In this document: positions 1,287 through 20,556 of the stretch, in pieces
Layout: each line of letters starts with the position of its first letter
Position numbering within the stretch: the first letter of the stretch is position 1
Source of the DNA: a virus
Virus record (IMG/VR): IMGVR_UViG_3300045988_103300
Coordinates: 1 to 21,684 of that record
Direction: 5' to 3' (one strand)
DNA length: 21,684 bases
Program-made: the position numbers and the translations under genes
The notes under the pieces: generated by a model
Told to the model about the DNA's origin: nothing
Database searches by the model: none
The model's input: only the letters and a program-made list of their open reading frames with translations

Positions 1287-1578
1287 TTAACCAATCCTCT
1301 AAATTATCCGTTTGTTGTTCTAATGGCTCTTTAAATATCTCATAGTACTTTTTATATTGGTAGTAGTATCTACTATTCTTTGAAAACCAATTATTCTTAA
1401 ATACTCTTGTAATCCAATACTTCAGCTCATTCTTACTATCTAATGACTGAAGCTTGGAATTAGATGTTTCCAGAAGTGCAATGCAGACCATTTGTGTGCA
1501 ATCGTCATCTGCACCAAATTTTTCTTTTAACTCCATAATAAACGGATAGTATTTCTCTATTATTTCATTGTTATTCAT
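1270..1578 (-). CDS. Sigma-70 region-2-like protein (102 aa)
   Basis: ATG 1576-1578, TAA 1270-1272. The segment DDDCTQMVCIALLE...ELKYWITRVFKNNWFSKNSR resembles ECF sigma region 2 (acidic-Q-x-hydrophobic ... W-hydrophobic-x-x-hydrophobic-x-x-N-x-x-x-x-x-x-R). It lies directly upstream of, and overlaps by 17 nt, the region-4-like ORF. Confidence 0.45.
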   Translation of the reverse strand: MNNNEIIEKYYPFIMELKEKFGADDDCTQMVCIALLETSNSKLQSLDSKNELKYWITRVFKNNWFSKNSRYYYQYKKYYEIFKEPLEQQTDNLEDWLNEAED

Positions 1579-3322: not shown

Positions 3323-5041
3323 ATGAAAACTTATTTAAATAATTTAATCAATGAATTACCTACTAACTGCTTATTTGACAAAGGTAAAGTAGGATGTGGT
3401 GGAACTTCAATGGCTTTAGAGTGTGATAAGCCTTATGTTATATGTGTTCCATTTGTAAGCTTAGTTGAGAATAAACTTGCTCAATATCCTAATGAAAGAC
3501 GTAAAGAGCCTATTTTTGGAGTTTATCAAGGTATTACTAAGACAGACATTGAAGCTTATGTATCTTCAGTTAAATGCCCTAAAATCATTGTTACTTATAA
3601 TTCTCTTTATAAAGTAATAGAAGCGGTAAATCCTAAAGATTATAGCCTATTAATTGATGAATATCATATACTATTTAATCAATATAGTCTTAGAAGAGAC
3701 GCAATTAAAGATGTATTAAAGACATATAGCTTATTTAAAGAATATACATTTATGACTGCTACTCCCTTAGAAGATGAATTTGTTTTAGATGAATTGTCTA
3801 AACTGCCATTAGTAAGACAAGAATGGGATGATGTTATCGAGACTAAAGTTCAGACTGTCAAATGCAAGAATGTAGAAGCTTCCACAATTAAGCTTATAAA
3901 TGGATTTTTAAGTGGGAATGTTGAAGGTAATGCTTATATATTTGTTAACTCTGTTGACTTTATAAAGAATCTTATTTTAAAGGCTAAACTTACAGCAGAT
4001 AACACAAGAGTAGTATATTCTAAGAATAATAGAACTAAACTGCCAATTCAGAATTCTTCAGTAAATGATGAACCTAAGAAGATTAATTTGTTGACTTCTA
4101 CTGTATTTGAAGGTTCTGATATTTATGATGAAAATGGAAGAATTATTGTAGTTAGTGATTCCTCTAAAGCTCAGACTCTTTTAGATATATCTACTTCAAT
4201 TCAACAGATTGCTGGTAGAATTAGAAATAGTAAATATTTAAATTGGATTACTCATCTTTATTCAGCCACAAGATATGCAGAGATAGATTATGATACATTT
4301 AAAAATAATACATTAAAGAATATTGAAGAAACAAAGATTGCAGTTGAATCATATAATCAGCTTCCAGAAGTAGCTCGTAAGAAGATTACAGACTTTACAA
4401 GTGACACATATATTCAAATTAATGAGGATTATACCTTTGAATTTGACCCAAATATGGCTAAAGTAGATATATTCAATTTTAAGGTTGCAAGAGGTTTATA
4501 CTCTGTAAGAGTTAATCTTACTAATGAATATCTAAAGAATGGCTTTATAAAGGTTGCTGAATGTGAAGATAAATCTATTAAGATAGACCTTGAAGCTCCT
4601 AGTAAGTCATTTCAGGAGCTTATTAAAGATGTAAGAGCTGAATGGGAAACTAAATTTAAAGTTGGAACTCCTATATTAAATGAAGCTCTAATTAAATATC
4701 CTTGGTTAAATGATGCAATTAATAAACTGGGATTTGAAAGAATGGCAACTTTGGGTTATTGCATTAAAGATATTAAAGAGGAGCTTGTTAAAATATCAGA
4801 TAAAAATATGCCAAATAAGGTTGCCAAATTACTTACAAGAGATATTCAGAATGGTATGTTCTACAATTTAGCTTTATTAAAGAATAAGATTGCTGATGTA
4901 TATAAGACTTTAGGTATAAAGAAAACTGCAAAGGCAACAGATATTGAACACTATTTTGAAGTTAGAAAATCAACTAAAACTGAAAAGGATGTTAGAAGCA
5001 AAGGATACATTATTATTAGACCAAGATTCATATTTAAATAG
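3323..5041 (+). CDS. SF2 (DExH-type) helicase-like ATPase (572 aa)
   Basis: ATG 3323, TAG 5039-5041. It has a P-loop-like GKVGCGGTS near the N-terminus, a Walker B/DExH box (LLIDEYH) and a motif III-like FMTATP. All 4 Trp codons are TGG. It is the only long plus-strand gene. Confidence 0.6.
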   Translation: MKTYLNNLINELPTNCLFDKGKVGCGGTSMALECDKPYVICVPFVSLVENKLAQYPNERRKEPIFGVYQGITKTDIEAYVSSVKCPKIIVTYNSLYKVIEAVNPKDYSLLIDEYHILFNQYSLRRDAIKDVLKTYSLFKEYTFMTATPLEDEFVLDELSKLPLVRQEWDDVIETKVQTVKCKNVEASTIKLINGFLSGNVEGNAYIFVNSVDFIKNLILKAKLTADNTRVVYSKNNRTKLPIQNSSVNDEPKKINLLTSTVFEGSDIYDENGRIIVVSDSSKAQTLLDISTSIQQIAGRIRNSKYLNWITHLYSATRYAEIDYDTFKNNTLKNIEETKIAVESYNQLPEVARKKITDFTSDTYIQINEDYTFEFDPNMAKVDIFNFKVARGLYSVRVNLTNEYLKNGFIKVAECEDKSIKIDLEAPSKSFQELIKDVRAEWETKFKVGTPILNEALIKYPWLNDAINKLGFERMATLGYCIKDIKEELVKISDKNMPNKVAKLLTRDIQNGMFYNLALLKNKIADVYKTLGIKKTAKATDIEHYFEVRKSTKTEKDVRSKGYIIIRPRFIFK

Positions 5042-5518: not shown

Positions 5519-6088
5519 TTAAACATATCTTCACTTGAATCCTTTAGCTGTATTTGCTAATCCACCACATACTCTACTAATAGCTCCTCTATCAGTTCCT
5601 ACAGATTTGGCTGCTTCTGTGCAACTTTCATACTCTTGAATAAAATTACCATCTAAATCATACTGAGCTACTTTACGACATCTTTGTTTGTTATGAGCAT
5701 CTACTTTATCTCTTCAAGATTCTGGGCAATTATGTTTCTTTCCCTTATTAGAATTAGACAGTTTCTTCTTTCATTCAGAATTAAATTTGACTCCGTAATT
5801 GCCTCCTTCTCCTCCAGGTTTCAAATTTAAACACATAGGATCAGTGTCCCATTTATCTCCAATTAGTTTGTATTCTAATTTAGATAATTCATCTGCATTA
5901 GTGCAAGTTGCCAAAATAATCTTTTGGTATGCATTAGGGAATCTTTTGTAATAATTAGTAATAATCCTTCCTGATCCTTTATATGGATCTTTATTTATGT
6001 CTTTACCTCTATAAATCCTTTTCCCAATATAATACTTGCCTCTTAATGTACCTGCAGTTAAAATTATTTTATAACAATAGTAAAACAT
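5519..6088 (-). CDS. GIY-YIG homing endonuclease with three in-frame TGAs (189 aa)
   Basis: ORF-track 5771..6088 (YCYKI...GKYYIGK...YKGSG GIY-YIG core) stops at TGA 5771-5773. Read-through gives ...KFNSE-W-KKKLSNSNKGKKHNCPES-W-RDKVDAHNKQRCRKVAQYDLDGNFIQEYESCTEAAKSVGTDRGAISRVCGGLANTAKGFK-W-RYV, ending TAA 5519-5521. The extension has NUMOD3-like basic repeats and the classic ..GF.W.Y tail. TGAs are at 5771, 5714 and 5531. Confidence 0.85.
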
Positions 6089-6540
6089 TATATAATAGTA
6101 AATTTCTGTCGTCTTTGCATCCCGTCTTTATTCTTTAATCCCAAGTGTATTCAACTTGCTATACCATTCTTAGGCTTTTCATATATCAACTGGTCTCAAT
6201 TTAATTCTTCAATAGCTTCAGCAATCCAACTTTGGAATACTTTCATATTACCATTAATTGGAGATATATCTGCTGCATACCCTGTTAAATGAGCAGAAGT
6301 TGAAGATCCTCCTACTGCTTTATTAAGCTCCTTATTTCTAAAACCAGAGGAAATCCTGATGCCTGCGTTACCAAGCTGATTGTCATCACAATACTTTGCC
6401 CATCTCTCTCTTATTGGGTCTAAAAGCTTCTCGACCAACTCTATCAGGTGCTCTGTTATACTCTCATCTGGAGTGTTATCTATATGCTTAATTGAAGCAG
6501 TATCAGATCTTGTTAATTCTTCGAGTGTGAAATACTTCAT
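6088..6540 (-). CDS. Endolysin, Peptidase_M15 (zinc D-Ala-D-Ala carboxypeptidase-like) family, two in-frame TGAs (150 aa)
   Basis: ORF-track 6196..6540 carries SSGFRNKELNKAVGGSSTSAHLTGYAADI (SxGxR..N...GG...S.H..G.A.D, M15 metal/active-site pattern) and stops at TGA 6196-6198. Read-through gives ...IEELN-W-DQLIYEKPKNGIAS-W-IHLGLKNKDGMQRRQKFTII, ending TAA 6088-6090. This restores the family's C-terminal ..DQLI.e.....W(I/V)H.. block. Confidence 0.8.
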
Positions 6541-6701
6541 TATTTAAGTATATCTTTAATCATAACATATCTATAAAATAGATGTGAAGCCACACCTATT
6601 ACAAGTAATACTACAGTAATCCAAAAAGGAATTACTTTGATTAGTAAACATATCAGCAGAATAATAACTACTGCAATTACATATTTTAACCAATATTTCA
6701 T
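6540..6701 (-). CDS. Holin candidate, two transmembrane helices (53 aa)
   Basis: Hand translation: MKYWLKYVIAVVIILLICLLIKVIPFWITVVLLVIGVASHLFYRYVMIKDILK. ATG 6699-6701. TAA 6540-6542 shares one base with the endolysin ATG. Call based on size, topology and position. Confidence 0.55.
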   Translation of the reverse strand: MKYWLKYVIAVVIILLICLLIKVIPFWITVVLLVIGVASHLFYRYVMIKDILK

Positions 6702-7786: not shown

Positions 7787-8476
7787 TTACTTACTCTTTT
7801 TATTGTTACTTGAAGGAAAATCATAAGCTCTTTGAAGAGGCCCCTCTCCAGGTTTAATGCTCCATCCTTTACCTCTTGCTCCACCAAGCCAAATATTGCA
7901 AGATGAGCTAGAGTAAAGATTGGGAAACATATCCTTTAATGGCTTATATGTATAAAGCTCAGGGAATTCGTTATAATATGTAATTATAAAGTCCTGTAAA
8001 CGAGTCTTAAAGAAATCCGCCTTATCTCTATAATACTTCTTAATTTGATTTACTTGACTTGCTTCAGCAGCAATATCTTTCTCATCATCAGTTCTCATAA
8101 CTCCAAAATTACCAAGCTTATAAGATATAGGAATTACTATCTCGCTAAGTACTTGATAAAGTAAATAAGGCTGAACATAATAGTCTAATAGCTCTTTATA
8201 TCTGTAGTTATCAGAATCATCAATAGAATCACTTGGAAGTGGCTCAGGAGGTTCTATTGGATGAACTGGAGTATGAGGATCAATCCAATTAATACATTTC
8301 TTTTGTAATGCTTCCAATAGCTTAGTACCAATAGTTGACTGAAGTTCTACATCTTGGGCACTTGTGATGGCTGCTTGTAAATATTTACCCGATATATTGT
8401 TATCTAATGTAGAATTTGACTTTATATAGTCTTCTGAAATAAGCAGTACATTTCTATAGTTAAGTTGTTCCATCAT
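7787..8476 (-). CDS. Possible head-tail connector (gp6-like) protein (229 aa)
   Basis: The N-terminal pattern ISEDYIKSNSTLDNNISGKYLQAAITSAQDVELQSTIGTKLLEAL resembles the start of gp6-like head-tail connector/DNA-packaging proteins. It is located after the portal. Weak assignment. Confidence 0.35.
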   Translation of the reverse strand: MMEQLNYRNVLLISEDYIKSNSTLDNNISGKYLQAAITSAQDVELQSTIGTKLLEALQKKCINWIDPHTPVHPIEPPEPLPSDSIDDSDNYRYKELLDYYVQPYLLYQVLSEIVIPISYKLGNFGVMRTDDEKDIAAEASQVNQIKKYYRDKADFFKTRLQDFIITYYNEFPELYTYKPLKDMFPNLYSSSSCNIWLGGARGKGWSIKPGEGPLQRAYDFPSSNNKKSK

Positions 8477-9068
8477 AAATAAATTTATTGTTTTTATAAG
8501 GTCTATTTTCTTTTAAAGCTAAATATAATCCAGAACGTTCTCCATTAACTGATTTAACAGCTTCTTTCATTGAATTATATCTTGCAATAAAATTCCCATT
8601 CATATCAAATCTTAATATAGGCTTAACTCTAGTAATTCGTCCTTTGGAAGCATTTCCAATTTTAATAAGTGTTTCCAAAGTATAGATTCCTTTCTTTCCT
8701 TTATTCCAGGGTGTTTTACCTTTTTTAGAATTTGACATTTTTGCTCTACTCTCATTAGAAAAAGAATACCCGTATGTACCTTCTCCTCCTGATGTTATAT
8801 TGTAACCATTTTCAGGAGTATTTGTTTTATATTTATGTATCAATATCCTTTCTAATGTCTTAGCACAAGCTTCTGGTAAATTATCTTTAATTATGATATG
8901 TTCAAATCCATCTCAGCTATATTTTTGTATCGCTTTATAAAAGTAAGCTTGAGTAGAGTATCCATATCCATTTTTTCACCTAGCTTGCACACTTTGTCCA
9001 GTAATGCCAAAATATAGCTTATTGTTATACTTATTTATATGGCAATAAACAGTATAATTATTCAACAT
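8460..9068 (-). CDS. GIY-YIG homing endonuclease with two in-frame TGAs (202 aa)
   Basis: ORF-track 8460..8843 begins on TTG and lacks the catalytic domain. Extending upstream through TGAs at 8913-8915 and 8976-8978 to ATG 9066-9068 gives MLNNYTVYCHINKYNNKLYFGITGQSVQAR-W-KNGYGYSTQAYFYKAIQKYS-W-DGFEHIIIKDNLPEACAKTLERILIHKYKT...GYNITSGGEG. This is a complete GIY-YIG domain followed by NUMOD3-like basic repeats. TAA 8460-8462. Confidence 0.85.
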
Positions 9069-10149
9069 TTTGTTTGCTATCTTCTTGTCCATTTGGAGTT
9101 AAGCTAAAAGGAGTTATAGTTATTGAACCTTTCATTCCAAATATCTTATCAAATGTATCTACTATTTCGACCTGAATTGGTCTAACTACTGTACGATTAT
9201 AAAGTTTAAAAGCTTCATTAAATTCTTGTTCGTTGAATCCACTTGAGTAGTTAAGGCCAAAAAGTACACTATTAGCTCTAAATGCGCAGAATATCTGTTC
9301 TCTTGTCCTATCAGATAAAGCACTATATTTCTCATCAAAATCATCAGAGTCTAAACGCTCAATAGTAGTCTTATTTGTTTCATCATCATTATATGAAATA
9401 AGAACTCTACCAGCATTTTGAAATCCTGAGAATTTCTCATTAATATTCATCTCAATCTCTTCTTTAACTTCGTCTGTAGGCTGTCCATTATTAAAGTTAA
9501 TGATAAGATTGCCCATAAATCCGTTATGAAGAGAATTTAGATGAAACTCATTAATATTCTTCTCAGTTTCGCAAGATAGGATAGCTGCACCATAAACAGG
9601 GACTGGATATACTTTTCTTGTTATATAGCCCTTATTATAAACAACACTTGTAGGATTATCATCTGAATAATTAAATTTTGGATATTTGATAGCTTTAATA
9701 GACCAAGCAGACCAATCATCGGCATAATAGAATACTTCATTCTTTTCATCAGAACGAATCTTCATAAAGTCAAGATGATATATTTCTGAAACTCTACCTA
9801 CCATATCTCTAATTATTTGTAAAGCATATCCTCCAAAAATCATCTTATCTTTAGATACTTTACGCATAATATCCATAATAGTCTCACCTTTCTTATTTAC
9901 AGTTACTTCAAATCCTGGTGCATTACATACAACATCATTACCAACAATAAAGTCAGCAGTCCCATTAATGATAGATTGAAGAGTAGCTACATTTAAGTAT
10001 AAATCCCATAGATATAATGGATAGCGATTATCTTCACCCCAAGAAATCCAATCAGAACCCCTTTTTCTCGATTCTACAGGAAGTACTAAATTTGACACTA
10101 CAACAGGATCAATTGCACTTAATTGTACTTTTGTTTTATTTTCGCTCAT
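9058..10149 (-). CDS. Portal protein (363 aa)
   Basis: ORF-track 9058..10206 starts on TTG; the likely start is ATG 10147-10149 (MSENKTKVQ...). Portal-family features: ..WISWGEDNRYPLYLWDLYLNVATLQSIINGTADFIVG.., ..MIFGGYALQII.., ..FLGLNYSSGFNEQEF.. All 5 Trp codons are TGG. Confidence 0.75.
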   Translation of the reverse strand: MSENKTKVQLSAIDPVVVSNLVLPVESRKRGSDWISWGEDNRYPLYLWDLYLNVATLQSIINGTADFIVGNDVVCNAPGFEVTVNKKGETIMDIMRKVSKDKMIFGGYALQIIRDMVGRVSEIYHLDFMKIRSDEKNEVFYYADDWSAWSIKAIKYPKFNYSDDNPTSVVYNKGYITRKVYPVPVYGAAILSCETEKNINEFHLNSLHNGFMGNLIINFNNGQPTDEVKEEIEMNINEKFSGFQNAGRVLISYNDDETNKTTIERLDSDDFDEKYSALSDRTREQIFCAFRANSVLFGLNYSSGFNEQEFNEAFKLYNRTVVRPIQVEIVDTFDKIFGMKGSITITPFSLTPNGQEDSKQNVE

Positions 10150-10600: not shown

Positions 10601-10629
10601 ATAAAAATAGGGAGAATAGAATCTCCCTA
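10601..10629 (-). terminator. Rho-independent terminator after the 323-aa LRR gene
   Basis: 8-bp stem: tagggaga (10608-10615), loop atagaa, tctcccta (10622-10629). On the minus strand it is followed by TTTTTAT (complement of 10601-10607). Confidence 0.75.
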
Positions 10630-10635
10630 AATTTA

Positions 10636-11607
10636 CTATGCAGAAGCTAATGTTCAGTTCTTAGATGTAGCTAAAGCTTTTTGTTCTTCTGTAAGAGCAT
10701 TATAAACTGCAGAATTAAATGTAATAGTTTGTGTAGAAATTCCAGTTAAATCTGACACTGCTTCTAGAACATTATCAACTGAACTAGACGTTAATGAAGG
10801 AAGATTAGCTAAAGTAAATGACTTACTTGTAACTACACCTCCGAATTCTGTTAATTCAGTTAGCCAGTATGAACTTCCAAATGTATAGCCAAAAGCTGTG
10901 GAGTTTAATGAATTATTAGGAGATATAGTTATTTTGCCTAAAGATTTTAATTTTTTACAATATGTAAACATCTGATTTGTTTGACCAGTACAGTTTGGAG
11001 CGTAAATATCTGGAATGGTTTCAATTGATCCACAATAATTGAAAATGCCAGAAAGAGAAGTTGCTATAGAAAAATCCATATTTGGTAAAGTAAGCAAACT
11101 ACTACATTTACTAAAAGTTTGAAAATATTGAGATAATTTTAAATTTGCATCTATTTCAACTAAATGTTGGCAGTTATAGAAAAGTTGACTACCTTGAGTA
11201 TGGGTACTATTTAATAATATTATTTTATGTATTGCATTACTGCTAGAAGTAGTATAAAACATATTATTCATATTTTTCCCTTGGCAATCAAATGTGAATT
11301 CATCATTTTCAGACCATTCACATCCGTAGAAAAAATCAGCATAAGAAGATTTATTTAGTATAAAATAATCCTCCAATTTTAATTCCCCACCATCTCTAAA
11401 TTGATGCATATTAGAATATCCTAATGATAATGGAATAATACTTAAATCAATTTTACCTCCACCTCCAGAAATCTGTCCTATCTTATCTGCATAGCTTCTA
11501 AAGGTATCTGAATCCGATACAGCAACACCTTTAGCTACAATAGCATCTTTAATGGCACTCTTAGTACCTTCAAGATACGTTAATTTATCAGAAATTGTAT
11601 TTGCCAT
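10636..11607 (-). CDS. BspA-type leucine-rich-repeat tail/receptor-binding protein, in-frame TGA (323 aa)
   Basis: ORF-track 10654..11607 stops at TGA 10654-10656. Read-through gives ...EEQKALATSKN-W-TLASA, TAG 10636-10638. The N-terminus (LTYLEGTKSAIKDAIVAKGVAVSDSDTFRSYADKIGQI) is typical of phage LRR fibre proteins. Repeats of the F..C..L type are present (FYGCEW.., FYNCQHLVEI, FSKCSSLLTL, FNYCGSIETI, FTYCKKLKSL). Confidence 0.7.
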
Positions 11608-11608
11608 A

Positions 11609-12130
11609 TTAGATATATTTAAATTTTACCCCTTTATAAGTGTCTGTTCTTCCTTTAAGACAATCTATAACTCTACTATGAGTATACCCATCTATTGATG
11701 TTTCAATTGCATTTTTATATGTTTTAACTAGTAAATCATTAATAAATAGCCCTACAGGTTTACTAATTTTATCAATACATCTATTTATTCTAGTTCCATA
11801 TGTATTATTATACTTTGCATCACATCATTCTAAATTTTCTACCCTATTATCTGTCTTATTTTCATTTATATGGTTAACATATGGTAGATTGTCAGGATTT
11901 GGAATAAATGCTTCTGCTACTAGTCTGTGAACTTTAATAGCTTTAGGTTTATCTAAGCCAGATACTAGAATTACATAATTATAGCCATATTTATCTATAT
12001 GCTGTTTTAGCTTTTTATGTATTTGTTTTCTGGTTCTTCCAATAGAATCTTTAAAAGTCAATGGGTTACTATATACATCTCCTGTAGAAGATACACTATA
12101 GTTAGGATAATTTGTTAATACTCTATTCAT
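11609..12130 (-). CDS. HNH homing endonuclease, in-frame TGA in the HNH core (173 aa)
   Basis: Likely start ATG 12128-12130 ([26 protein letters not shown]4-like). ORF-track 11825..12208 stops at TGA 11825-11827. Read-through gives ...[92 protein letters not shown] 11609-11611. NLEW is the conserved HNH_3 motif. Confidence 0.85.
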
Positions 12131-12737
12131 TTGGAATTTCACCATTAATTGTATCAAGAGTAGTTGAGATATTACCAATCTGAGCTTGAATTGCTGAGAT
12201 TTCTCCATCTAACTCTGTCATCTTTGTATTATATGCATCTGTAGTTACATAGCTTGATAATTCACTTTTATCTGCTTTAAGTGCAACTTCATCTTTAGTA
12301 GCTAATCCAGATACATCAGGAATCTTATTCTCTACAGCTGTAAGCTCTTCTTTAGTAGCAAAATCCTCAGTACTTGGAATATCTGCCTTGAGAGCATAGT
12401 TAGAAAGATCAATAGATAGATGTAAATCTTCACCCTCTCTATTAAATGACATAGGAGAGTTTACTTGAAATACTTCCATCTTAGATGTTTCTAATTCAGT
12501 AATATCATTCTTAATTGGCTCTAACTTAGGTTCAAGTATAACATCCAACTGAGAATTAATTTGCTCATCAATTATTTCAACAGCCTTATCTTCGGAAATG
12601 TAATTACCTTTAGGTTGAAATCTGGCATCTGCTTCAATCTTTGTATAAGAACCAACTGGAAGCTGAGCTGTCTCAATACCACATTTCTTACTAACATAGA
12701 AGGTCTGAGTATTCTTAGTATTCTTTAATATAATCAT
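12123..12737 (-). CDS. Tail-fibre-like protein, short paralogue (204 aa)
   Basis: ORF-track start 12764 is TTG; the first ATG is 12735-12737. TAG 12123-12125. It shares low-complexity fibre segments (..[48 protein letters not shown]..) with the central part of the 741-aa fibre. No Trp. Confidence 0.55.
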
Positions 12738-12967: not shown

Positions 12968-13810
12968 TTAGTATGTTACTGACCAGCCTTTACTGGTGAT
13001 TTGTGATTTTTGTTCCTCTGTTAATGAATTATATACAGTTTGATGAAATTTGATTATTAAATTTCTATCTGTAGTATATAATCCATCTATAACATTATCT
13101 ACTGACTGACTCGTTAATACTGGTAATTTTGATAACTTTAATATTTCTATGTTAGTGCTTTTCCCTATATTAGTAAACCCTCCTAAATCTGTCAAATAAG
13201 AAAAAGGCCCAGAAGCAAATATATTTTGGTAATCCTGTCACTTTTCTGCATTATATCTAGGAACAGATTCTAAAGCTATACATCCTCTAAACATATTTTC
13301 AACACTTATAGCATTATCCATATTTATATTAGGAGCATTTTTTAAAGATGAGCATCCGTCAAACATATTGTAAAAAGCTATAGCTGTTGTGCCATTAATA
13401 TCTGGTACAGATACTAATGATGAGCAGTTTTGAAATGTTTGCCCAAGATGTACAAAATTTGATAGTATATTGGGAACTATTTTTAAATTTGTACATCCAT
13501 AAAATAAACCATTTGCTGCTCCTTTATTTGCGTTTGGAAAATAGGTCATATCGGATACATCCTCAATAGAAGTGCTTTCGAATATACTATTATTACCTTT
13601 ATACCAACTATTTACTGTATTTGCATCACAATCAGTAATTTCAGTCTGTCCTGGAAATATATTATCTATAACTAATTGCTTAAATTCAGTACTTTTAAAT
13701 ACTATAGGGGAGCAAATATTACTAGGCCAGACTTTGGTACTGCCAACATAAATAGCAGTACCTTGTCTGTCACCTACATAAAATGTTTTTAAATCATCTC
13801 TAATATTCAT
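12968..13810 (-). CDS. BspA-type LRR tail/receptor-binding protein, fusion of two track ORFs across TGA (280 aa)
   Basis: ORF-track 13238..13810 ends at TGA 13238-13240. ORF-track 12968..13195 is in the same frame and begins on TTG. The joining sequence is ...RYNAEK-W-QDYQNIFASGPFSYLTDLGGF... The fused protein has the same architecture as the 323-aa paralogue: LRR units FYGCTNLKIV, FQNCSSLVSV, FDGCSSLKNA, FRGCIALESV, then a C-terminal LSKLPVLTSQSVDNVIDGL...LTEEQKSQITSKGW module. Confidence 0.75.
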
Positions 13811-13811: not shown

Positions 13812-16037
13812 TTATTCTACAATTAAATATTGTGTATTAGGATCTTTAGTTGATAAACCATCATACTCTGATTGAGTTAGAACAGTAATAGTATTTATTT
13901 GAGGTTGGGTTCCAGTTCCAGCTTCAATATAGTTTCCAGCAGGCTGAATACCTAAATCTGATAAACTCTTATTGCCAGATAACTCAACAGAATTAATCTG
14001 AGGTTTATTTGTTAACTGAGTATAATCGGTAGCCCCTCCACCTCCAGATATTTCAAGATTACCTTCTCCTAAAATACTTTCACCATTAATAGTCTTTATA
14101 TTAGTACCAGAAACTAGTTGCTCTTGATAACTATGATAACTAGTATCTGCTGATACTCCAGTTGGAGTAATAGTAGTTTGAACTACAGTATGATTAGCTG
14201 TAGTACTTTCAAAATGGAAAGTAGCTTGAATATTTTCTCCTGAAACAAAACATACTTCTGGAGCTGCTATATCACCATAACCTAGAATATTTACATAATA
14301 AAGCTCAAATGGTGTTTTATTAGCTATAGCATTCTTAACAGCAGCGAAATCTCCAGAAAGATGAGTAGTGGAATTTATAAATAGAAATGGAATATTAGAA
14401 CCACTTTCAATTTCTATATTACCTTCTCCAAGTAAAGACTGACTATTGATTGTTTTGATATTAGTTCCACTTACAAGCAAATCTTGCTTAGTAGCCATCT
14501 CTTTATCAAGAGAATCAATCTTATCTCCATCTTCTTCTTGTTTTGTTTTAATAATTGATATATCTGAAGTATTAGTTGCTACTTGAGTAGATAAAGATTC
14601 TACTACAGAAGAATCTGCTTTACCTGCAAGTTCTATTTTTGTTGCATAATCTCCTACAGGCTGTTTAGTAGCAAGCTGCTCATCAACATAAGTCTTATCT
14701 GCTTTACCTGCTAAATCTCCAGAAACCTCTGTTTCAGTTACAAAGTTAGAATCATTAGTAAGCTCACTAACTTTAGTTGGAATATCACTCTTTAAAGCAT
14801 AATCTCCTTTATCTTGTTTTGCATCAATCTTACTTTGTAAAGAAGATCTTAGAGTCTCAATTTCCTCATTAACTGAATCGTTAGTTGCATAATCACCAAC
14901 TGGTTGGTATCCAGATAAATCTACAGATAACTGAGTCTTATCTCCATTAAAAGCTAATGGAGCTTGAGGAGCAAATACTCCTTGTTTTTCCTCAAGTTTG
15001 GCATCTACTTCTTCTTTAGTATATCCTTTATTAGTAAGATCAACCTCAGTAACTTTAACAGTCATATTACCATTATTTACTAAGATTGCATTAATAACTA
15101 CTAATACACCATTATCTTGGAAATAATAGCCATATAAATCAATAGTTTCGGGATGCTCAATAGTTGCAACAGGAATAACTATAATATCACCTTTATATGT
15201 AATCTGGCAGAATAAATAGAAGTCCAGATTAGTTCTAATAAAGTCATAGATATGTTTCTGTCTTACAGGATCATTCTCATCTAAATTAAGTAAGAAATGA
15301 TTCTCAAAAGCAGAGATTACATTATCTATAATAGATATATTCTTTCCTGCTGTAAGCGTTTCCTGTTTTGAAGCTATCTCTTTATTAATAGCTGTATTTA
15401 AAGCATCAATTTCAGCTTTGGTATATTTATCTGCTAATTGTGCATATAGAGGACCATTAACAATACCAGCTTGGTTAGTCTCTGTATTATATATTGGAAG
15501 TTCAACTGCTTCTCCAGTTTGATTACCAAATACAGGAGCTAAAGTAACTTTAGATGGGACTGATTGAATATTAATGGCAGGTACGATTGAAGCTGCTCCA
15601 GATAATTCAGTTCCATTTAAAGATGGTTTGTTACGAATAGTATTATAATCTGCAGAAATAGTATTCTCTTCAATTACTATACCATCACCTTGAACAAGTG
15701 TATTTTGCTTTCCAGCAGTGGCTTCAGTAATCTCTGCAGTTACCTCTTCTTTAGTTGGATAGTCAGCTAGTTTCTCAGTAATCTGATTATCAACTCCTTC
15801 AACTGACGGAATTCCAAGTTCATCAGAAGTCATACTTCCATTTAACTCAACTCCATTAATTTCAGGTTTATTTTGAATATCAAAATAACTGTTTGTTCCT
15901 AACTGAGAACCATCCATAACCTTAACTTCATCATCCTTGTCAATAACAATAACTTTAGTCACATTTGACTTATCTATCGTTTCAACTTCAAGGACATTAA
16001 GATAAGGAAGAATTGTCTTTTCAGTTTCGTTTGCCAT
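13812..16037 (-). CDS. Long tail fibre protein (741 aa)
   Basis: ATG 16035-16037, TAA 13812-13814. Recurrent fibre motifs: NKPxINGxELxG (three times: IQNKPEINGVELNGSMTSDELGI, IRNKPSLNGTELSG, LTNKPQINSVELSGNKSLSDLGI) and LVSGTNIKTIN(S/G)xS(L/I)LGEGN(I/L)EI (twice). Central Ala/Lys/Asp-rich repeats are present (GDYATK.ELAGKAD). By my reading it contains no Trp. Confidence 0.75.
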   Translation of the reverse strand: MANETEKTILPYLNVLEVETIDKSNVTKVIVIDKDDEVKVMDGSQLGTNSYFDIQNKPEINGVELNGSMTSDELGIPSVEGVDNQITEKLADYPTKEEVTAEITEATAGKQNTLVQGDGIVIEENTISADYNTIRNKPSLNGTELSGAASIVPAINIQSVPSKVTLAPVFGNQTGEAVELPIYNTETNQAGIVNGPLYAQLADKYTKAEIDALNTAINKEIASKQETLTAGKNISIIDNVISAFENHFLLNLDENDPVRQKHIYDFIRTNLDFYLFCQITYKGDIIVIPVATIEHPETIDLYGYYFQDNGVLVVINAILVNNGNMTVKVTEVDLTNKGYTKEEVDAKLEEKQGVFAPQAPLAFNGDKTQLSVDLSGYQPVGDYATNDSVNEEIETLRSSLQSKIDAKQDKGDYALKSDIPTKVSELTNDSNFVTETEVSGDLAGKADKTYVDEQLATKQPVGDYATKIELAGKADSSVVESLSTQVATNTSDISIIKTKQEEDGDKIDSLDKEMATKQDLLVSGTNIKTINSQSLLGEGNIEIESGSNIPFLFINSTTHLSGDFAAVKNAIANKTPFELYYVNILGYGDIAAPEVCFVSGENIQATFHFESTTANHTVVQTTITPTGVSADTSYHSYQEQLVSGTNIKTINGESILGEGNLEISGGGGATDYTQLTNKPQINSVELSGNKSLSDLGIQPAGNYIEAGTGTQPQINTITVLTQSEYDGLSTKDPNTQYLIVE

Positions 16038-16038: not shown

Positions 16039-16272
16039 TTATTCTATATGTTTAGGTTTTAAACTCATCTCTTTAAGTTCAAGGTATTCTTTATGCTGTT
16101 CCTCTGTAATTACCCTATAGACAGATAAATCTGCATTTAAAGGGCAGTACATTAGTGTTGAGGCTGTATAAAACTTGATATTATCTCCATCAGTATATTT
16201 AGTAACATAATATCCTTTATCAGTATATACCTTGATAAAAACGTCTGTTTGTGTTATATGTAAATGTTCCAT
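16039..16272 (-). CDS. Small protein, paralogue of 12745..12966 (77 aa)
   Basis: ATG 16270-16272 shares one base with the TAA of the 500-aa LRR gene. TAA 16039-16041. The motif ..MYCPLNADLSVYRVITEEQHKEY.. matches ..CICPLDCDLTHLREISLEQDRIY.. of the 73-aa protein. Confidence 0.55.
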   Translation of the reverse strand: MEHLHITQTDVFIKVYTDKGYYVTKYTDGDNIKFYTASTLMYCPLNADLSVYRVITEEQHKEYLELKEMSLKPKHIE

Positions 16273-17774
16273 TATGCAAGAATCCAGTTTTTATTAGTAG
16301 CTATTGCTTTCTGTTCATCTGCTAGTTTAGATAAATGAGACTCTCCTAATACTAATGTATATTGAGTATCTCCAGTTCTATCTTTAAGTGCATCTAAAAT
16401 AGATACTAATGAGTCTATAGTTAGAGCTTCAAGACCTAAACTAAAATCAAGATAATCAGCATCTAAAGTTCCAGTTAAAGTAATAGTAGTAAGATTTGGG
16501 CAATCACTAAAAATAGCTCCTCCCATAGTTAATCCAGAAAAGTTGGTAGTTACTGTTGTTAAACTTTGGCAACTTCCAAACATTCCTCCTGCAGATTGTA
16601 CTGAAGAAAGGTCTATATTCCAAGAACTTAAAGTAGTATTTTGGAACATACCATCTGCCTCAATTAGTGCAGGTAACTCTATATTCCAATTACCAATAGA
16701 AGTATTCCAGAACATCATTTTTCCATTAGATAAAACTGGCAACGAATAACCCCAATCTGTTCAACCTACTCTTAAACATTGACTAAACATTTCTTCTGCA
16801 TTAACTAATCTACTTGTATCAAGTATAGGATTTTCTAATAGACCACAATTAGAAAACATACCTCTTGCTTCAACTAATATAGCATTTAATGTTATAGACT
16901 TTAATTTATTACAGTTAGCAAACATATAATCGCCATTAGTCATTTTAGGTGTACTTGCAGTAAAAGAAGTTAAACCAGTAAATCCAAACATATTATTTCC
17001 AGATGTTAATTCTGGCATATCTATATTGAACGAGGTTAACGCACTATCTCCATTAAACATTCCAGCTCCATTCTGTAAATTAGGAAGCTCCTTAGTAAAG
17101 GATGTTAACTGAGGACAACTTTGTAATATTCCTTCTCCATTAGTTACATTAGTAAAATCGAAGCCTTCAGGAACTTCAGTAAACTCACTACCTTGTAGTT
17201 TAATTTTATTTGCTGCTACGTCAATACTTCCTCCAGTTGGCACATTAACAGTTACATCAATAAACTCCATATAATCATATCCATCTGCAGGATGAATCAT
17301 TGTAGTTCCATTCTCTGTAATAGTAACTTCTCTATGCTCCTCAATTGGAATCTCTACATCTACTTCAATACTTGATAAACCTTGATAGCCAGCATCAGGT
17401 TTAACTTCAGTCATTGATAGGTTTTTATCTATTGTTATATGTTTCTCTTGTAAAGTAGGAGTTGGTACTGGAACATTTATTTGTGCAGAAACCTTCTCCA
17501 TAACATCATAATCTGGATCAGGTAAAATATCTATTAATCCATTAGATGTAATTGCAATCTCTTTAGTAGATTGTACTGTGGGAACAACAACATCAACAGA
17601 TACATTTACTTTCGACATACCATCATAACCCTCATCTGGAGTTACAACGAACTCAGCATTCTGAGTATATTCTACAGATTTCTCCTGTAATTTACATTCT
17701 TGAGCAGCTAAAGCTTCAATATCTCTTGAAGTTGTATTCTTTGCTACTTCTGGTGTTGTATATTTAATAGCCAT
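16272..17774 (-). CDS. BspA-type LRR tail/receptor-binding protein, fusion of two track ORFs across TGA (500 aa)
   Basis: ORF-track 16761..17774 ends at TGA 16761-16763. ORF-track 16272..16742 is in the same frame and begins on TTG. Junction: ...MFSQCLRVG-W-TDWGYSLPVLSNGKMMFWNT..., in mid-LRR array. The N-terminus has four ~38-aa tandem repeats. There are LRR units on both sides of the TGA (MFANCNKLKSITL, MFSNCGLLENPIL | MFGSCQSLTTVT, IFSDCPNLTTITL) and a C-terminal ..LADEQKAIATNKNWILA module. Confidence 0.8.
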
Positions 17775-17857: not shown

Positions 17858-18382
17858 TTAAGCACCTACAACACTTTGAATAGCTTCAGCACTCAACTCA
17901 TAAGGATATGATTCAGAGTCAGTAGCTAAAGTCAGCGTATAAGCGTTCTGATCACCTTTTGCAGTACCAGTAACACCCGTACCAGCGGAAGCGCTTACAT
18001 AGTCATCTTTTCCTAAGAACCAGTATTTGCCATTAGAATCTTCTACAACAACTACAAGTTGTCCAATAGAAAGAGCAGCAATCTCGATTCTTTTCTTAGT
18101 CTCCATCTTTGTAAATACAAGAGCAAGCTCATTACTTACATAGTTGGTTCCTGCAGTTTCGTCAACGTTCAATGTTGAGGTTAGAGAACCAGTACCTTTG
18201 CGGAATTGGTAATTATACCATTTAGCTGAAGATTCAAGAGTAATAGCTGAGATTTGATTAGTCTCATCATCTACAGTTACACTCTTAACATTATCGTACT
18301 GAGTAATCCATACCTGTTTGATACCACCAAGCGAAGATTCGCAATCCAGGGTAATACCAGCGATAGTTATTAAACAAGCCAT
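17858..18382 (-). CDS. Putative major tail (tube) protein (174 aa)
   Basis: It lies immediately after the capsid gene, is followed by a terminator and is visibly less AT-rich (codon bias of abundant proteins). The pattern ..GGIKQVWI......V......I.....W..Y.F....+..L...ALVF.K......I..L..G.LVVVVEDSNGKYWFLG.. resembles tail-tube proteins. Tentative. Confidence 0.4.
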   Translation of the reverse strand: MACLITIAGITLDCESSLGGIKQVWITQYDNVKSVTVDDETNQISAITLESSAKWYNYQFRKGTGSLTSTLNVDETAGTNYVSNELALVFTKMETKKRIEIAALSIGQLVVVVEDSNGKYWFLGKDDYVSASAGTGVTGTAKGDQNAYTLTLATDSESYPYELSAEAIQSVVGA

Positions 18383-18420
18383 ATAATTTCAATCTTATTT
18401 AAAGTTAAACTCTATTGAAA

Positions 18421-19326
18421 TTAGGCTTTGGCACCAAGAACTACCTCATCAGGGAATGCAACCTGTACGCCAGCGTTAAATTCAATAGCTAATCTAAATT
18501 CGCGGAAATCTTGTGAATACCACAATTCAAACTTCTCTTCATCGTTCATCATATCGCAACCATAGAAGAAGTTCTTATCTAACTGACCAGCAACAATCTT
18601 ATCAGTTCCATTAAGACCATTAACAGCGATTACTTTAACCTGCGAACCAGGAAGCATAATCTCACCATTAAGATTCTCACCACTATAGTGGTAGTAGTTC
18701 TTAGCAACTAACTCCTGGATAAATTTACGGAAAGTATCACTACCAACTAAGATAGAAGCACCATCCAGAACCTTCTCAGGAATAGCGTTATAAACAGCCA
18801 TAATGTCATCATAAGCAGATGCTCCAGTAATTACTACATCAACAACACCATCAGCAGCACCAAGGATCTTTAACAGACCATCAAAATACTTCAGGTTATT
18901 TGTTTCAGAAGCAGTATCACCCTGCCAAATAGCAGTCTCGATAGCAGCCTTAACGTTCTCAACTACTGCATTTACGAAATCCTCTTCAAAAGGAAGCGTC
19001 TTCTGACCAGCAGCTACTCGTACTTGATACTGAGTCCAGTATTTAAGCATCTCTTTATCACAATATGCCATATTGATCTTAATATTACCAGTAGCCAGAA
19101 TTCTCTGAGAAAGAGTCTGAGTTCCAGCTTCATTCCAACCACAAGCTAGGCCATCGCCAAACTGAATAGCAGTTGATAACAGGTTAAGAGCAGCACTAGT
19201 TTTGATGTCAGTTTGAAGATTGAACAACGAAGCACTCTTAGCCTTTAATACAGCCTCTTTAATAAGAGGAAGACGTCTCTGCTCTACATAAGCAGTAAGA
19301 CTAGTCATTACAGGACTATTTGCCAT
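18421..19326 (-). CDS. Major capsid protein, HK97 fold (301 aa)
   Basis: Position after protease and scaffold, size, and motifs typical of HK97-like MCPs (..AIWQGDT....YFDGLLKIL.., C-terminal ..EFNAGVQVAFPDEVV..). Less AT-rich than neighbouring genes. All 4 Trp codons are TGG. Confidence 0.75.
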   Translation of the reverse strand: MANSPVMTSLTAYVEQRRLPLIKEAVLKAKSASLFNLQTDIKTSAALNLLSTAIQFGDGLACGWNEAGTQTLSQRILATGNIKINMAYCDKEMLKYWTQYQVRVAAGQKTLPFEEDFVNAVVENVKAAIETAIWQGDTASETNNLKYFDGLLKILGAADGVVDVVITGASAYDDIMAVYNAIPEKVLDGASILVGSDTFRKFIQELVAKNYYHYSGENLNGEIMLPGSQVKVIAVNGLNGTDKIVAGQLDKNFFYGCDMMNDEEKFELWYSQDFREFRLAIEFNAGVQVAFPDEVVLGAKA

Positions 19327-19348
19327 AATTTTATAAATAATTTAATAA

Positions 19349-19960
19349 TTAACCAATAAAGTTTTTAAGCTTTTTATCAATAACAGGATTACCAGTCATT
19401 ATTGAAGCTTTGCCTTCTATCTGTTCCTCAGCTGAAAATGCAGCACTCATTTTGCTCATCTTTTCAACCGTCTTTTCTGTAGCTTCAGATTTACCCTCTA
19501 ATTCAGCTACTTTCTTAACAAGCTTATCAACAATGTCATAAAGCTCATTAATTTCGCGATGAATTGCATCAATTGCATCAGTTACAGTTTCTTTATCTCC
19601 ATCAGTAGCTACTTCAGGATCAACTGGCTCTTCAGCAGTTTCTACCTTGCGTTTTCCACAAGCAGCATCAACTTCTGCTTTAGCTGCTTCTTCTGGATCA
19701 ACTTCAGCTTTTGGATCAGTAATGGACTCTACTTTACCGTCTTTAACAACAATAGTTTTGCCATCTTCGGTAACATACTCACCATCAGCAGCAGGTGCAT
19801 ATTCTCCAGTATCAGTATCCATTGTATATACACTCATACCTGCCCTTAGATCCTCATCCTCACTACCATCGTAAGTTAGAACTCCAGCACTAGTCTTAAC
19901 ATCGTTAAATTTTGCTAAGAGTTTACTAAGTTCGATTCTCAGTTTAGTTAATTTGTTCAT
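19349..19960 (-). CDS. Scaffolding protein (203 aa)
   Basis: A highly acidic, Ala/Glu/Lys-rich helical protein (..INELYDIVDKLVKKVAELEGKSEATEKTVEKMSKM..) directly upstream of the capsid gene. No Trp. Confidence 0.6.
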   Translation of the reverse strand: MNKLTKLRIELSKLLAKFNDVKTSAGVLTYDGSEDEDLRAGMSVYTMDTDTGEYAPAADGEYVTEDGKTIVVKDGKVESITDPKAEVDPEEAAKAEVDAACGKRKVETAEEPVDPEVATDGDKETVTDAIDAIHREINELYDIVDKLVKKVAELEGKSEATEKTVEKMSKMSAAFSAEEQIEGKASIMTGNPVIDKKLKNFIG

Positions 19961-20555
19961 ACTTAAATTTAAAATTTTTATGATAGTTTTGTTTATTTTT
20001 GCAACATTTTATAATAGCACTATGATCAAAATTTCCGTTTCTTTCAGCGTCCATAGCAGATTTCCAAGTGCATATATAAGTATCATTAATATCTGTCATA
20101 ATTATACGTTTACTTACTTTTTCTTTCTGCTGTTCAGTTTGTTTAGTTCCTAATCTACATTCTCTTAACTTTAATTTTGTTTCATCCTTTAATACTCTTC
20201 CAGACTGTTTTAAAGACATTTTGTGTTTAGATTCTTCACTGTGTTTAAATCCAGTATTAGAACCTCCACCTTCATTTAAATTATAACCATTATTTAATGT
20301 ATCAAATAACTGAATATATTTAATTTCTGCATTATTTAGTTGTCTTTTCAATAATTCTGTAGAAGAACAACAAAAGATTTGAAGAATTTCCCATTTAAAG
20401 TTATTGAATTCATATTTCCTAATCGCTCTATGAAAATATGTAAGATTAGAACTGTATTTATGTTCATTCTTTCTTCTCAAGAAATTATTTGTTTGTCCTA
20501 CATATTTATTGCCATTTATAAGATTTGTTGCTAGATATATAACTCCACTATACAT
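19944..20555 (-). CDS. GIY-YIG homing endonuclease (203 aa), no TGA
   Basis: GVIYLATNLINGNKYVGQT...RRKNEH...AIRKYEFNNFKWEIL...E..YI.....NGYNLNEGG is a complete GIY-YIG domain. It is followed by NUMOD3-like repeats (HSEESKHKMS, LKDETKLKLRE, QTEQQKEKVSK) and a C-terminal DNA-binding tail. It is inserted between the protease and scaffold genes, overlapping the scaffold start by 17 nt. Confidence 0.85.
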   Translation of the reverse strand: MYSGVIYLATNLINGNKYVGQTNNFLRRKNEHKYSSNLTYFHRAIRKYEFNNFKWEILQIFCCSSTELLKRQLNNAEIKYIQLFDTLNNGYNLNEGGGSNTGFKHSEESKHKMSLKQSGRVLKDETKLKLRECRLGTKQTEQQKEKVSKRIIMTDINDTYICTWKSAMDAERNGNFDHSAIIKCCKNKQNYHKNFKFKYEQIN

Positions 20556-20556
20556 T

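What the first reader, a model, noticed from the sequence alone, without database searches (positions are those of the whole stretch)
10636..10692. Internal control: three paralogous C-termini encode the same Trp as TGG, TGG and TGA
The three LRR proteins end in a shared module: ...LADEQKAIATNKN-W-ILA (16272..), ...LTEEQKSQITSKG-W-SVTY (12968..) and ...LTEEQKALATSKN-*-TLASA (10636..). In the first two the Trp codon is TGG (checked on the DNA: aac tgg att; ggc tgg tca). In the third the aligned codon is TGA (10654-10656), followed by 5 more sense codons, a TAG and then a terminator hairpin. This gives within-genome evidence for TGA=Trp that does not depend on external families.
Basis: seen in the sequence. 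Interest (0 to 1): 0.65.

Follow-up and report, generated by a model that had tools for sequence, protein, structure and literature searches.

The report
TGA read as tryptophan in phage
The TGA six codons before the end of a phage tail-protein gene is a tryptophan codon, not a stop; this confirms that the uncultured phage uses the already known "code 4" variant of the genetic code, although no phage gene that could decode TGA was found.

Summary
On the minus strand the gene 10636..11607 reads ...LTEEQKALATSKN-TGA-TLASA-TAG and is followed by a terminator hairpin. Its two paralogues have TGG at the aligned column.

- In 31 related phage contigs the orthologous codon is TGA in 28 and TGG in 3. 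Those 3 carry the window's own 3' end allele.
- The tail TLAS(A/SN) is kept at the amino-acid level through synonymous changes.
- Across the window, TGA/TGG is the dominant exchange at Trp codons.
- One TGA aligns with the conserved Trp of the HNH motif of I-HmuI.
- 96 of the 120 best homologues have W at the column, and none ends naturally before it.

Taken alone, the three-paralogue comparison could not exclude a harmless TGG-to-TGA nonsense truncation.

Phages that read TGA as Trp are already described, so this is a new member of a known kind. The open question is how TGA is decoded:
- No tRNA was found in the window or in near-complete relatives, and no release factor or Trp-tRNA synthetase among the genes annotated.
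- The phage has a peptidoglycan hydrolase.
- TGA is under-used, and it is absent from capsid genes.

The parts
10654..10656 (-). In-frame TGA, codon 318 of the LRR tail protein P3, read as Trp
   Evidence: DNA read. The orthologous codon is TGA in 28 and TGG in 3 of 31 related loci, or 29 and 4 by blastn mapping. It aligns to W in 96 of 120 homologues.
10636..11607 (-). P3, a 323-aa receptor-binding-type protein with a BspA-like LRR core. It has a conserved N-terminal ~50 aa and a C-terminal ~45-aa module ending ...SKNWTLASA, and its real stop is TAG at 10636-10638.
   Evidence: (LRR_5 at 19.3 bits, below the cut-off) and 10/11. The AlphaFold model of the 92%-identical P0001 has pLDDT 89.4, and residues 319-323 (WTLAS) form a confident terminal beta strand.
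10608..10629 (-). Intrinsic-terminator-like hairpin plus T run, 6 nt after the TAG
   Evidence: The same hairpin follows the TAG in L004, L020 and L022.
12968..13810 (-). P2, a 280-aa paralogue. Its C-terminal W276 is TGG (12983-12985) and it has an internal in-frame TGA at codon 191 (13238-13240).
   Evidence: In relatives the C-terminal W codon is TGG 13, TGA 2, TTG 1.
16272..17774 (-). P1, a 500-aa paralogue (LRR_5 58 bits, DUF285 27.7 bits). Its C-terminal W497 is TGG (16284-16286) and it has an internal in-frame TGA at codon 338 (16761-16763).
   Evidence: In relatives the C-terminal W codon is TGG 12, TGA 1. The 162 sense codons that follow the internal TGA have P=5e-7 of arising by chance.
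11825..11827 (-). In-frame TGA in the HNH_3 homing endonuclease gene (11609..12208), within the motif ENLE-W-CD
   Evidence: The Pfam HNH_3 match spans it. It aligns to the Trp of NLRWVT in I-HmuI, PDB 1U3E. In relatives the codon is TGA 15, TGG 3.
6088..6540 (-). Peptidase_M15_3 endolysin with two in-frame TGAs (codons 115 and 130). It shows that the host has peptidoglycan.
   Evidence: Pfam 52.4 bits, phrog_894 endolysin, and a match to the 1LBU zinc D-Ala-D-Ala carboxypeptidase motif. Codon 115 in relatives is TGA 6, TTC 7, TTT 9; codon 130 is TGA in 22 of 22.
17858..21147 (-). Capsid module: tube-like protein, major capsid protein, scaffold, a GIY-YIG insert and protease. The structural genes avoid TGA throughout the phage family.
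   Evidence: TGA share of Trp codons: MCP 0 of 132, scaffold 0 of 22, tube-like 1 of 84, protease 4 of 52.
3323..5041 (+). The only plus-strand gene, a 572-aa P-loop protein of unknown family. It is free of TGA in all 17 orthologues.
   Evidence: 0 of 78 Trp codons. No significant PHROG or Pfam match.

Best explanation
**What is shown.** The TGA at 10654-10656 is a sense codon for tryptophan. The gene ends at the TAG at 10636-10638, and the last six residues, WTLASA, form the terminal beta strand of a conserved C-terminal module shared by the three LRR tail proteins. The window is about 70% of the ~30 kb genome of an uncultured tailed phage in which TGA is never needed as a terminator. All 33 genes can end in TAA (28) or TAG (5), and 16 in-frame TGAs in 12 genes stand for Trp. 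This is genetic code 4.

**What is inferred (probability about 0.55).** The phage belongs to the 'alternatively coded phage' type. It would infect a walled host that probably uses the standard code, and TGA would be decoded only in the infected cell and less efficiently than TGG. That would explain three things:
- TGA makes up only 21% of Trp codons in a genome where other A-ending codons make up 62-89%.
- TGA is excluded from the most highly expressed capsid genes and from the single opposite-strand gene.
- TGA is common in tail-fibre, receptor-binding, lysis and homing-endonuclease genes.

**What is not identified.** The decoding agent. No phage tRNA was found, and no release factor or Trp-tRNA synthetase among the genes that could be annotated.
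For: - **Orthologues.** The column is TGA in 28 and TGG in 3 of 31 loci. The three TGG loci share the window's 3' allele, and L020 differs at 3 of ~105 bases, including the TGG/TGA third base. The tail TLAS(A/SN) is conserved through synonymous codon changes.
- **Window-wide codon exchange.** At the window's TGA sites, relatives have TGA 193, TGG 19, TTT/TTC 17 and GGA 9. At its TGG sites they have TGG 881, TGA 136 and TAT 26.
- **Open reading after TGA.** The combined chance probability of the open runs is about 1e-35. Under code 4 the genes tile neatly.
- **External anchors.** One TGA aligns to the Trp of I-HmuI. In two other phages, L072 and L080, the homologue has TGG at the column. A separate, ~30%-identical lineage (L081, L082) has TGA there.
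- **Homologue census.** 96 of 120 have W, 6 have Y, and 7 are cut exactly before the column.
- **Structure.** Residues 319-323 form a beta strand at pLDDT ~96.
- **For the inferred part.**
  - TGA is 16 of 75 Trp codons against 66% A-ending for Lys, Glu and Gln (P=5e-15).
  - TGA use is gene-specific.
  - 12 of 33 genes (36%) carry an in-frame TGA. That lies inside the 26-71% reported for recoded phages of standard-code hosts, against ~90% for phages sharing a recoded host's code (bioRxiv 10.1101/2021.08.26.457843).
  - More distant relatives of the capsid genes include a TAG-recoded-looking member, a TGA-recoded one and one that looks close to standard.
  - The endolysin is a Peptidase_M15_3.
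Against: - No protein-level data exist.
- ARAGORN found no tRNA in the window or in 71 related loci.
- Rfam found nothing at gathering score in the window plus six loci from three related contigs, and nothing tRNA-like at E<=1 in the window, L047 and L085, which together span about one genome equivalent.
- No RF1 or TrpRS was seen among the ORFs.
- A standard-code host would therefore need an unknown decoding mechanism.
- TGA also occurs in terminase and in small regulator-like genes, so not everything outside the late structural and lysis genes is standard-coded.
- One site shows TGA/GGA exchange.
Confidence: 0.93

Rival explanations
1. The host itself uses code 4, that is, it has a tRNA-Trp(UCA) and no RF2 activity on UGA. 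The phage simply shares its host's code and needs no machinery of its own.
For: No tRNA was found in the phage genomes, and no RF or TrpRS among the annotated genes. TGA is not required as a terminator in any of the 33 genes. TGA is present in terminase and in regulator-like genes as well as in late genes. Most GenBank phages predicted to use table 4 infect Mycoplasma or Spiroplasma (PMC11210395).
Against: By established knowledge, the free-living code-4 bacteria (Mycoplasma, Spiroplasma and relatives) have no cell wall, yet the phage carries a Peptidase_M15_3 endolysin next to a small membrane-protein gene. TGA is strongly under-used, at 21% against 62-89% for other A-ending codons, and it is absent from capsid genes. 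Only 36% of genes carry a TGA. More distant relatives of the capsid genes include a TAG-recoded-looking member.
Confidence: 0.3
2. TGA is a genuine stop here. P3 would be a slightly truncated paralogue produced by a tolerated TGG-to-TGA nonsense mutation, and the following TLASA would be untranslated.
For: The mutation is a single transition. Only 6 residues would be lost. The 5-codon open tail has a chance probability of 0.64.
Against: TGA is kept in 28 of 31 orthologues spanning 40-90% protein identity, while the tail stays TLAS(A/SN) through synonymous changes and an in-frame indel. Fifteen other in-frame TGAs lie in the middle of conserved domains. The lost segment would be a confidently predicted terminal beta strand containing a nearly invariant Trp.
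Confidence: 0.02
3. TGA encodes another residue: Gly as in code 25 of Gracilibacteria and Absconditabacteria, or Cys, or selenocysteine.
For: One site (8460..9092, codon 39) shows TGA in 7 relatives and GGA in 9. Code-25 phages exist.
Against: Every other variable TGA site exchanges with TGG, or with the aromatic codons TTT, TTC and TAT, and not with GGN or TGY. TGA aligns to invariant Trp in I-HmuI and in the LRR C-terminal module. Sixteen scattered sites make Sec implausible, and Rfam gave no RNA-element hit.
Confidence: 0.02
4. A phage-encoded suppressor tRNA exists, but it is non-canonical or lies in a part of the genome that was not covered.
For: Published surveys find suppressor tRNAs in only 35% or 15% of code-4 phages, and their authors suspect missed non-canonical tRNAs.
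Against: The window, L047 and L085 together cover about one genome equivalent, and no tRNA-like hit appears even at Rfam E<=1. Seventy-one loci from dozens of relatives are negative.
Confidence: 0.1

Closest known systems
Alternatively coded (stop-codon-recoded) gut phages that read TGA as Trp, genetic code 4 (Borges et al., bioRxiv 10.1101/2021.08.26.457843; Cook et al., PMC11210395)
   Same: In-frame TGA falls at Trp positions. Recoding is partial and gene-specific, and is heavy in tail and lysis genes. Related phages differ in how much TGA they use, and more distant capsid-gene relatives appear to use other codes. Most members lack a detectable suppressor tRNA. The ~30 kb genome size resembles the small clades described there (Garnet, Amethyst, Topaz).
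   Different: I could not test membership of any named clade, because no reference sequences were available. In this family the capsid, scaffold and tube-like genes are TGA-free, whereas that work describes structural genes in general as recoded. No tRNA was found, and no RF1 or TrpRS among the genes annotated.
[quoted passage not shown]
   Same: TGA = Trp with no phage suppressor tRNA. The genome is AT-rich (31% GC). The tail proteins contain DUF285/BspA-type repeats, which were first described in Mycoplasma.
   Different: This phage has a peptidoglycan-hydrolase endolysin. TGA is the minority Trp codon (21%). There is no sequence similarity to any GenBank phage record.
BspA-type leucine-rich-repeat / DUF285 proteins (Pfam PF13306, PF03382)
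   Same: P1 passes both Pfam cut-offs. P3 and P2 are its paralogues. The model of a 92%-identical P3 homologue resembles LRR solenoids such as the Nogo receptor, BACOVA_04585 and TpLRR, but only weakly.
   Different: P3 (19.3 bits against a cut-off of 27.7) and P2 (no hit) fall below the Pfam thresholds. The conserved N-terminal helix module and the C-terminal ...EEQK..A.SK[GN]W... module are not part of those Pfam models.
crAss-like phages with TAG or TGA reassignment (Yutin et al., PMC7886860)
   Same: Stop-codon reassignment in uncultured gut-type phages, with codon use differing between gene modules.
   Different: Genome size and gene content are unrelated (~30 kb against ~100 kb), and those phages usually carry suppressor tRNAs.

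Membership tests
Genetic code 4 (TGA = Trp) usage | In-frame TGA codons inside conserved protein-coding genes, with the reading frame staying open afterwards | tested here: met
   There are 16 in-frame TGAs in 12 of 33 genes. The combined chance probability of the open runs is about 1e-35.
Genetic code 4 (TGA = Trp) usage | TGA aligns with Trp (not Gly, Cys or Sec) in homologues | tested here: met
   TGA/TGG is the dominant exchange. The I-HmuI Trp aligns to a TGA. W is present at the C-terminal column in 96 of 120 homologues. One minor TGA/GGA site exists.
Genetic code 4 (TGA = Trp) usage | TGA is not used as a terminator | tested here: met
   All 33 genes can end at TAA (28) or TAG (5), with tight gene tiling. 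This is by construction of the ORF calls, but it agrees with start and stop overlaps such as TAATG at 16272.
Genetic code 4 (TGA = Trp) usage | A tRNA with anticodon UCA charged with Trp is available (host- or phage-encoded) | tested here: not met
   No phage tRNA was found. The host is unknown, so a host tRNA could not be tested.
Genetic code 4 (TGA = Trp) usage | Trp is found at TGA positions in the protein | not testable with these tools
   This needs proteomics.
Recoded phage of a standard-code host (Borges-type) | The host uses the standard code | not testable with these tools
   The only genome-collection hits were two 20-26 kb contigs binned with unrelated MAGs. No prophage junction was found. 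The 148-kb IMG/VR contig still carried phage genes about 4 kb upstream of the locus first fetched.
Recoded phage of a standard-code host (Borges-type) | Partial recoding, with some genes free of the recoded stop | tested here: met
   36% of genes carry a TGA. The capsid module and the plus-strand gene are TGA-free across the family.
Recoded phage of a standard-code host (Borges-type) | Code-change machinery (suppressor tRNA, RF1, TrpRS) | tested here: not met
   No tRNA was found, and no RF1 or TrpRS among the ORFs read or annotated. The literature reports the same absence in 65-85% of code-4 phages.
BspA-type LRR (PF13306) / DUF285 (PF03382) | Score above the Pfam gathering cut-off | tested here: inconclusive
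   P1 meets it (58.0 against 27.7, and 27.7 against 25). P3 is below it (19.3 against 27.7). P2 has no hit. P2 and P3 are linked to P1 by BLASTP.

The most novel reading that the evidence does not exclude
A family of ~30 kb phages of a walled bacterium reads TGA as Trp with no phage tRNA, release factor or synthetase. It keeps its capsid genes and one opposite-strand gene TGA-free. Two readings follow. Either there is a decoding route that needs no suppressor tRNA, for example a phage factor that disables RF2 or alters the host tRNA-Trp so that UGA is read by near-cognate pairing. Or there is an unrecognised walled bacterial lineage with native code 4.
Probability: 0.3. Interest if true: 0.7.

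Novelty: new member of a known kind. Interest (0 to 1): 0.3.

Why it matters
For annotation, the window must be translated with table 4. With table 11, 12 of its 33 genes are split or truncated, including all three receptor-binding-type proteins, the endolysin and four homing endonucleases.

For biology, TGA = Trp in phages is established, so this finding mainly adds a well-controlled example from a large, mosaic, uncultured phage family that has no relative in GenBank.

The more useful lead is the combination of four features: no detectable suppressor tRNA, a peptidoglycan hydrolase, strong under-use of TGA, and TGA-free capsid genes. Together they make this compact 30 kb family a tractable system for asking how the majority of code-4 phages, which lack a suppressor tRNA, get UGA decoded.

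Tried and rejected
- **Megablast of the whole window against GenBank phages:** no match.
- **tblastn of the major capsid protein against the same set:** no match.
- **tblastn of P3:** only a weak LRR hit in two Listeria phage records.
- **tRNA searches:** ARAGORN on the window and 71 loci, Rfam at gathering score, and Rfam at E<=1 all found no tRNA. The only weak Rfam hit was sraA at E=0.66, which I treated as chance.
- **Host identification:**
I regard these as binned phage contigs, not evidence of a host.
  - Walking ~5.8 kb upstream in a 148-kb IMG/VR contig showed more phage genes in the window's own order over the ~4 kb nearest the starting point, and no host DNA, so I stopped.
  - Cluster look-ups returned no organism names.
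- **Structure prediction:** I used the 92%-identical P0001 instead.
- **Fold search against the PDB:** only non-significant LRR matches, with the best E=0.008.
- **Selenocysteine, code 25 and programmed readthrough:** considered and rejected on the codon-exchange spectrum.
- **Pfam and PHROG scans of the unannotated genes:** nothing resembling RF1, TrpRS or a tRNA-modifying enzyme.

Full report
**1. The observation**

On the minus strand the window reads ...CTT ACA GAA GAA CAA AAA GCT TTA GCT ACA TCT AAG AAC TGA ACA TTA GCT TCT GCA TAG. The TGA is at 10656-10654 and the TAG at 10638-10636. Six bases later an 8-bp GC-containing hairpin followed by TTTTTAT (10629->10608) scores as a terminator. 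The scan gave two terminator-like hits, the two strands of this one hairpin, against 0.3 expected from shuffles.

- P1 (16272..17774)...AAC TGG ATT CTT GCA TAA.
- P2 (12968..13810)...GGC TGG TCA GTA ACA TAC TAA.

The three proteins are true paralogues. BLASTP gives P3/P2 E=2e-24 and P3/P1 E=4e-10, and both alignments run to the Trp column (alignment A1).

**2. Is the paralogue comparison enough on its own?**

It is not. A TGG-to-TGA transition six codons from a C-terminus is also the most likely kind of tolerated nonsense mutation. The five open codons after the TGA have a 64% chance of being open by accident, given 8.6% TAA/TAG per off-frame codon. The interpretation therefore had to be tested on orthologues and on the rest of the genome.

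**3. Orthologues**

A protein search found 376 homologues, and I read the best 120:
- 96 carry W at the column, followed by 3-6 further residues.
- 6 carry Y.
- 7 stop exactly before the column.
- 11 are fragments or lack the module.

A scan of IMG/VR gave 34 related loci on ~30 kb contigs. I read the DNA of 31 of them:
- The column is TGA in 28 and TGG in 3 (L004, L020, L022).
- Those three carry the same 3' end, stop codon and terminator as the window.
- Over about the last 105 bases, L020 differs from the window at three positions, one of which is the third base of this codon.
- The tail is conserved as TLASA or TLASSN while its codons change: Thr is ACT or ACA, Ala is GCA, GCG or GCT, and Ser is AGT, TCA or TCT. 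The only length difference is a 3-nt indel.

Three further comparisons extend this:
- A separate lineage, about 30% identical, has GGT TGA ACT ATC AAA TAA (L081) and GGT TGA AAA ATA AGT TAA (L082) at the same column.
- Two other phages have TGG there: L072, a temperate phage with an integrase, and L080.
- The C-terminal Trp codons of P2 and P1 are themselves TGG/TGA polymorphic among relatives, at 13/2 and 12/1.

An AlphaFold model of the 92%-identical P0001 has mean pLDDT 89.4. It places WTLAS (319-323) as a terminal beta strand at pLDDT ~96. W319 is nearly invariant in the alignment.

That is rejected.

**4. The rest of the window**

Under table 4 the genes tile on the minus strand with short overlaps. 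There are 16 in-frame TGAs in 12 of 33 genes. Every gene can end in TAA (28) or TAG (5). The sense runs that follow the first TGA of each gene have a combined chance probability of about 1e-35.

I mapped every Trp codon of the window onto the 34 related loci:

| Codon in window | Codons at the same site in relatives |
|---|---|
| TGA | TGA 193, TGG 19, TTT/TTC 17, GGA 9 |
| TGG | TGG 881, TGA 136, TAT 26, others fewer than 10 each |

So TGA behaves as a synonym of TGG and is otherwise replaced by aromatic codons.

An external anchor comes from the HNH_3 endonuclease (11609..12208). Its TGA aligns with the Trp of NLRWVT in I-HmuI, PDB 1U3E.

A second internal control exists in the endonuclease C-termini: GGFIWEYE uses TGG (1571..2062) and KGFKwRYV uses TGA (5519..6088).

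**5. What the element is**

The annotated genes are as follows:

| Coordinates | Annotation |
|---|---|
| 9058..10149 | Portal protein |
| 18421..19326 | Major capsid protein |
| 20557..21147 | Protease |
| 19349..19960 | Scaffold-like protein |
| 13812..16037 | Tail fibre |
| 10636..11607, 12968..13810, 16272..17774 | Three LRR tail proteins (P3, P2, P1) |
| 6088..6540 | Peptidase_M15_3 endolysin |
| 6540..6701 | Small membrane protein next to the endolysin |
| 1041..1286 | Sigma-70 region 4-like HTH protein |
| 1571..2062, 5519..6088, 8460..9092, 11609..12208, 19944..20555 | Five free-standing HNH or GIY-YIG/NUMOD endonucleases |

Relatives show that terminase, two large tail proteins and a tape-measure-like protein lie outside the window. 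The family is large and mosaic. It has no nucleotide or capsid-protein match in GenBank phage records.

**6. How TGA is decoded**

This remains unresolved.

No tRNA was found in three kinds of search:
- ARAGORN on the window and 71 loci.
- Rfam at gathering score on the window plus six loci from three related contigs.
- Rfam at E<=1 on the window, L047 and L085, which together span about one genome equivalent.

No RF1 or TrpRS was seen among the ORFs.

TGA is not a neutral synonym of TGG:
- It makes up 21% of Trp codons in the window, against 62-89% A-ending use in the Lys, Glu, Gln, Leu-TTR and Arg-AGR pairs (binomial P=5e-15).
- Its use is sharply gene-specific across the family:

| Gene | TGA share of Trp codons in the family |
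|---|---|
| Major capsid protein | 0 of 132 |
| Scaffold | 0 of 22 |
| Tube-like protein | 1 of 84 |
| Plus-strand gene 3323..5041 | 0 of 78 |
| P3-type receptor-binding gene | 83% |
| Tail fibre | 95% |
| HNH gene 11609..12208 | 95% |
| Endolysin | 41% |

- Only 36% of the window's genes carry a TGA. That lies in the 26-71% range published for recoded phages of standard-code hosts, against ~90% for phages that share a recoded host's code.
- More distant relatives of the capsid genes include a contig that looks TAG-recoded (L079, ORF coverage 0.86 against 0.68), a TGA-recoded one (L070), and L078, which looks close to standard.
- The endolysin implies a walled host, whereas the known free-living code-4 bacteria are wall-less. 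That last point rests on established knowledge.

I therefore favour a phage-type recoding in a walled, probably standard-code host, with an unidentified decoding agent, at about 0.55. A native code-4 host comes second at about 0.3. The published surveys report the same gap: suppressor tRNAs were found in only 35% and 15% of code-4 phages.

**7. Comparison with what is known, and verdict**

Phages that read TGA as Trp are well documented. This is a new member of a known kind, and it is very well supported by a within-family TGG/TGA polymorphism.

Its claim that the evidence is independent of external sequences is overstated.

Interest in the finding as stated is modest. The residual interest lies in the missing decoding machinery.

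Noticed in passing
window 10636-11607; L001-L034: P3-type genes in more than 30 related phages share a nearly identical N-terminal ~50 aa (MANTISDKLTYLEGTKSAIKDAIVAKGVAV...) and C-terminal ~45 aa, placed around unrelated LRR cores (about 40% overall identity). This looks like cassette exchange of the receptor-binding core between conserved flanks.
   Followed up: partly
window 1571-2062, 5519-6088, 8460-9092, 11609-12208, 19944-20555: Five free-standing homing-endonuclease genes (HNH_3/NUMOD4 and GIY-YIG/NUMOD1/3) lie within 21.7 kb. In many relatives the blastn alignments break at or beside these genes, which suggests presence/absence polymorphism. They are also among the most TGA-rich genes.
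   Followed up: partly
window 16039-17774: P1 and the small gene upstream of it are missing in many relatives, where the alignments jump from about 16043 to 17774. P1 therefore looks like an accessory tail-protein insertion.
   Followed up: no
window 3323-5041 (+): This is the only gene on the plus strand: a 572-aa protein with a P-loop-like GCGGTS motif and no significant Pfam or PHROG match. None of its 17 orthologues uses TGA (0 of 78 Trp codons). It is a candidate early gene translatable in the standard code.
   Followed up: partly
window 17858-21147 and family orthologues: The capsid module (tube-like protein, major capsid protein, scaffold, protease) almost never uses TGA across the family, whereas the tail fibre and receptor-binding genes use it for 83-95% of Trp codons. 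Window-wide, TGA is 21% of Trp codons against 62-89% for other A-ending pairs.
   Followed up: yes
window 5519-6088 codon 186 vs 1571-2062 codon 160: A second within-genome control. The endonuclease C-termini read KGFK-TGA-RYV and GGFI-TGG-EYE. Among relatives the first site is TGA in 15 of 15 and the second is TGG 2, TGA 6.
   Followed up: partly
window 8460-9092 codon 39: This is the only TGA site that exchanges with a Gly codon: relatives have GGA 9, TGA 7 and TTC 1. It is a single-base change and does not fit the aromatic pattern seen at the other sites.
   Followed up: no
L079 (CAVCAD010000156.1), L070, L078: Distant relatives (33-48% capsid-protein identity) appear to use different codes. 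L079 gains ORF coverage with TAG as a sense codon (0.86 against 0.68), L070 gains with TGA as a sense codon (0.96 against 0.89), and L078 is close to standard.
   Followed up: partly
window 11609-12208 / 12123-12737: The longest ORF of the HNH gene overlaps the upstream fibre-like gene by 86 nt. The NUMOD4 match starts at residue 33, so the true start is probably a downstream ATG.
   Followed up: no
L067/L085 (IMGVR_UViG_3300045988_175865, 148,631 bp): A relative lies at the end of a 148-kb 'viral' contig. The ~4 kb of readable genes upstream of the first locus repeat the window's gene order and include no host genes. The contig may be a chain of related phage genomes, but this was not resolved.
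   Followed up: partly
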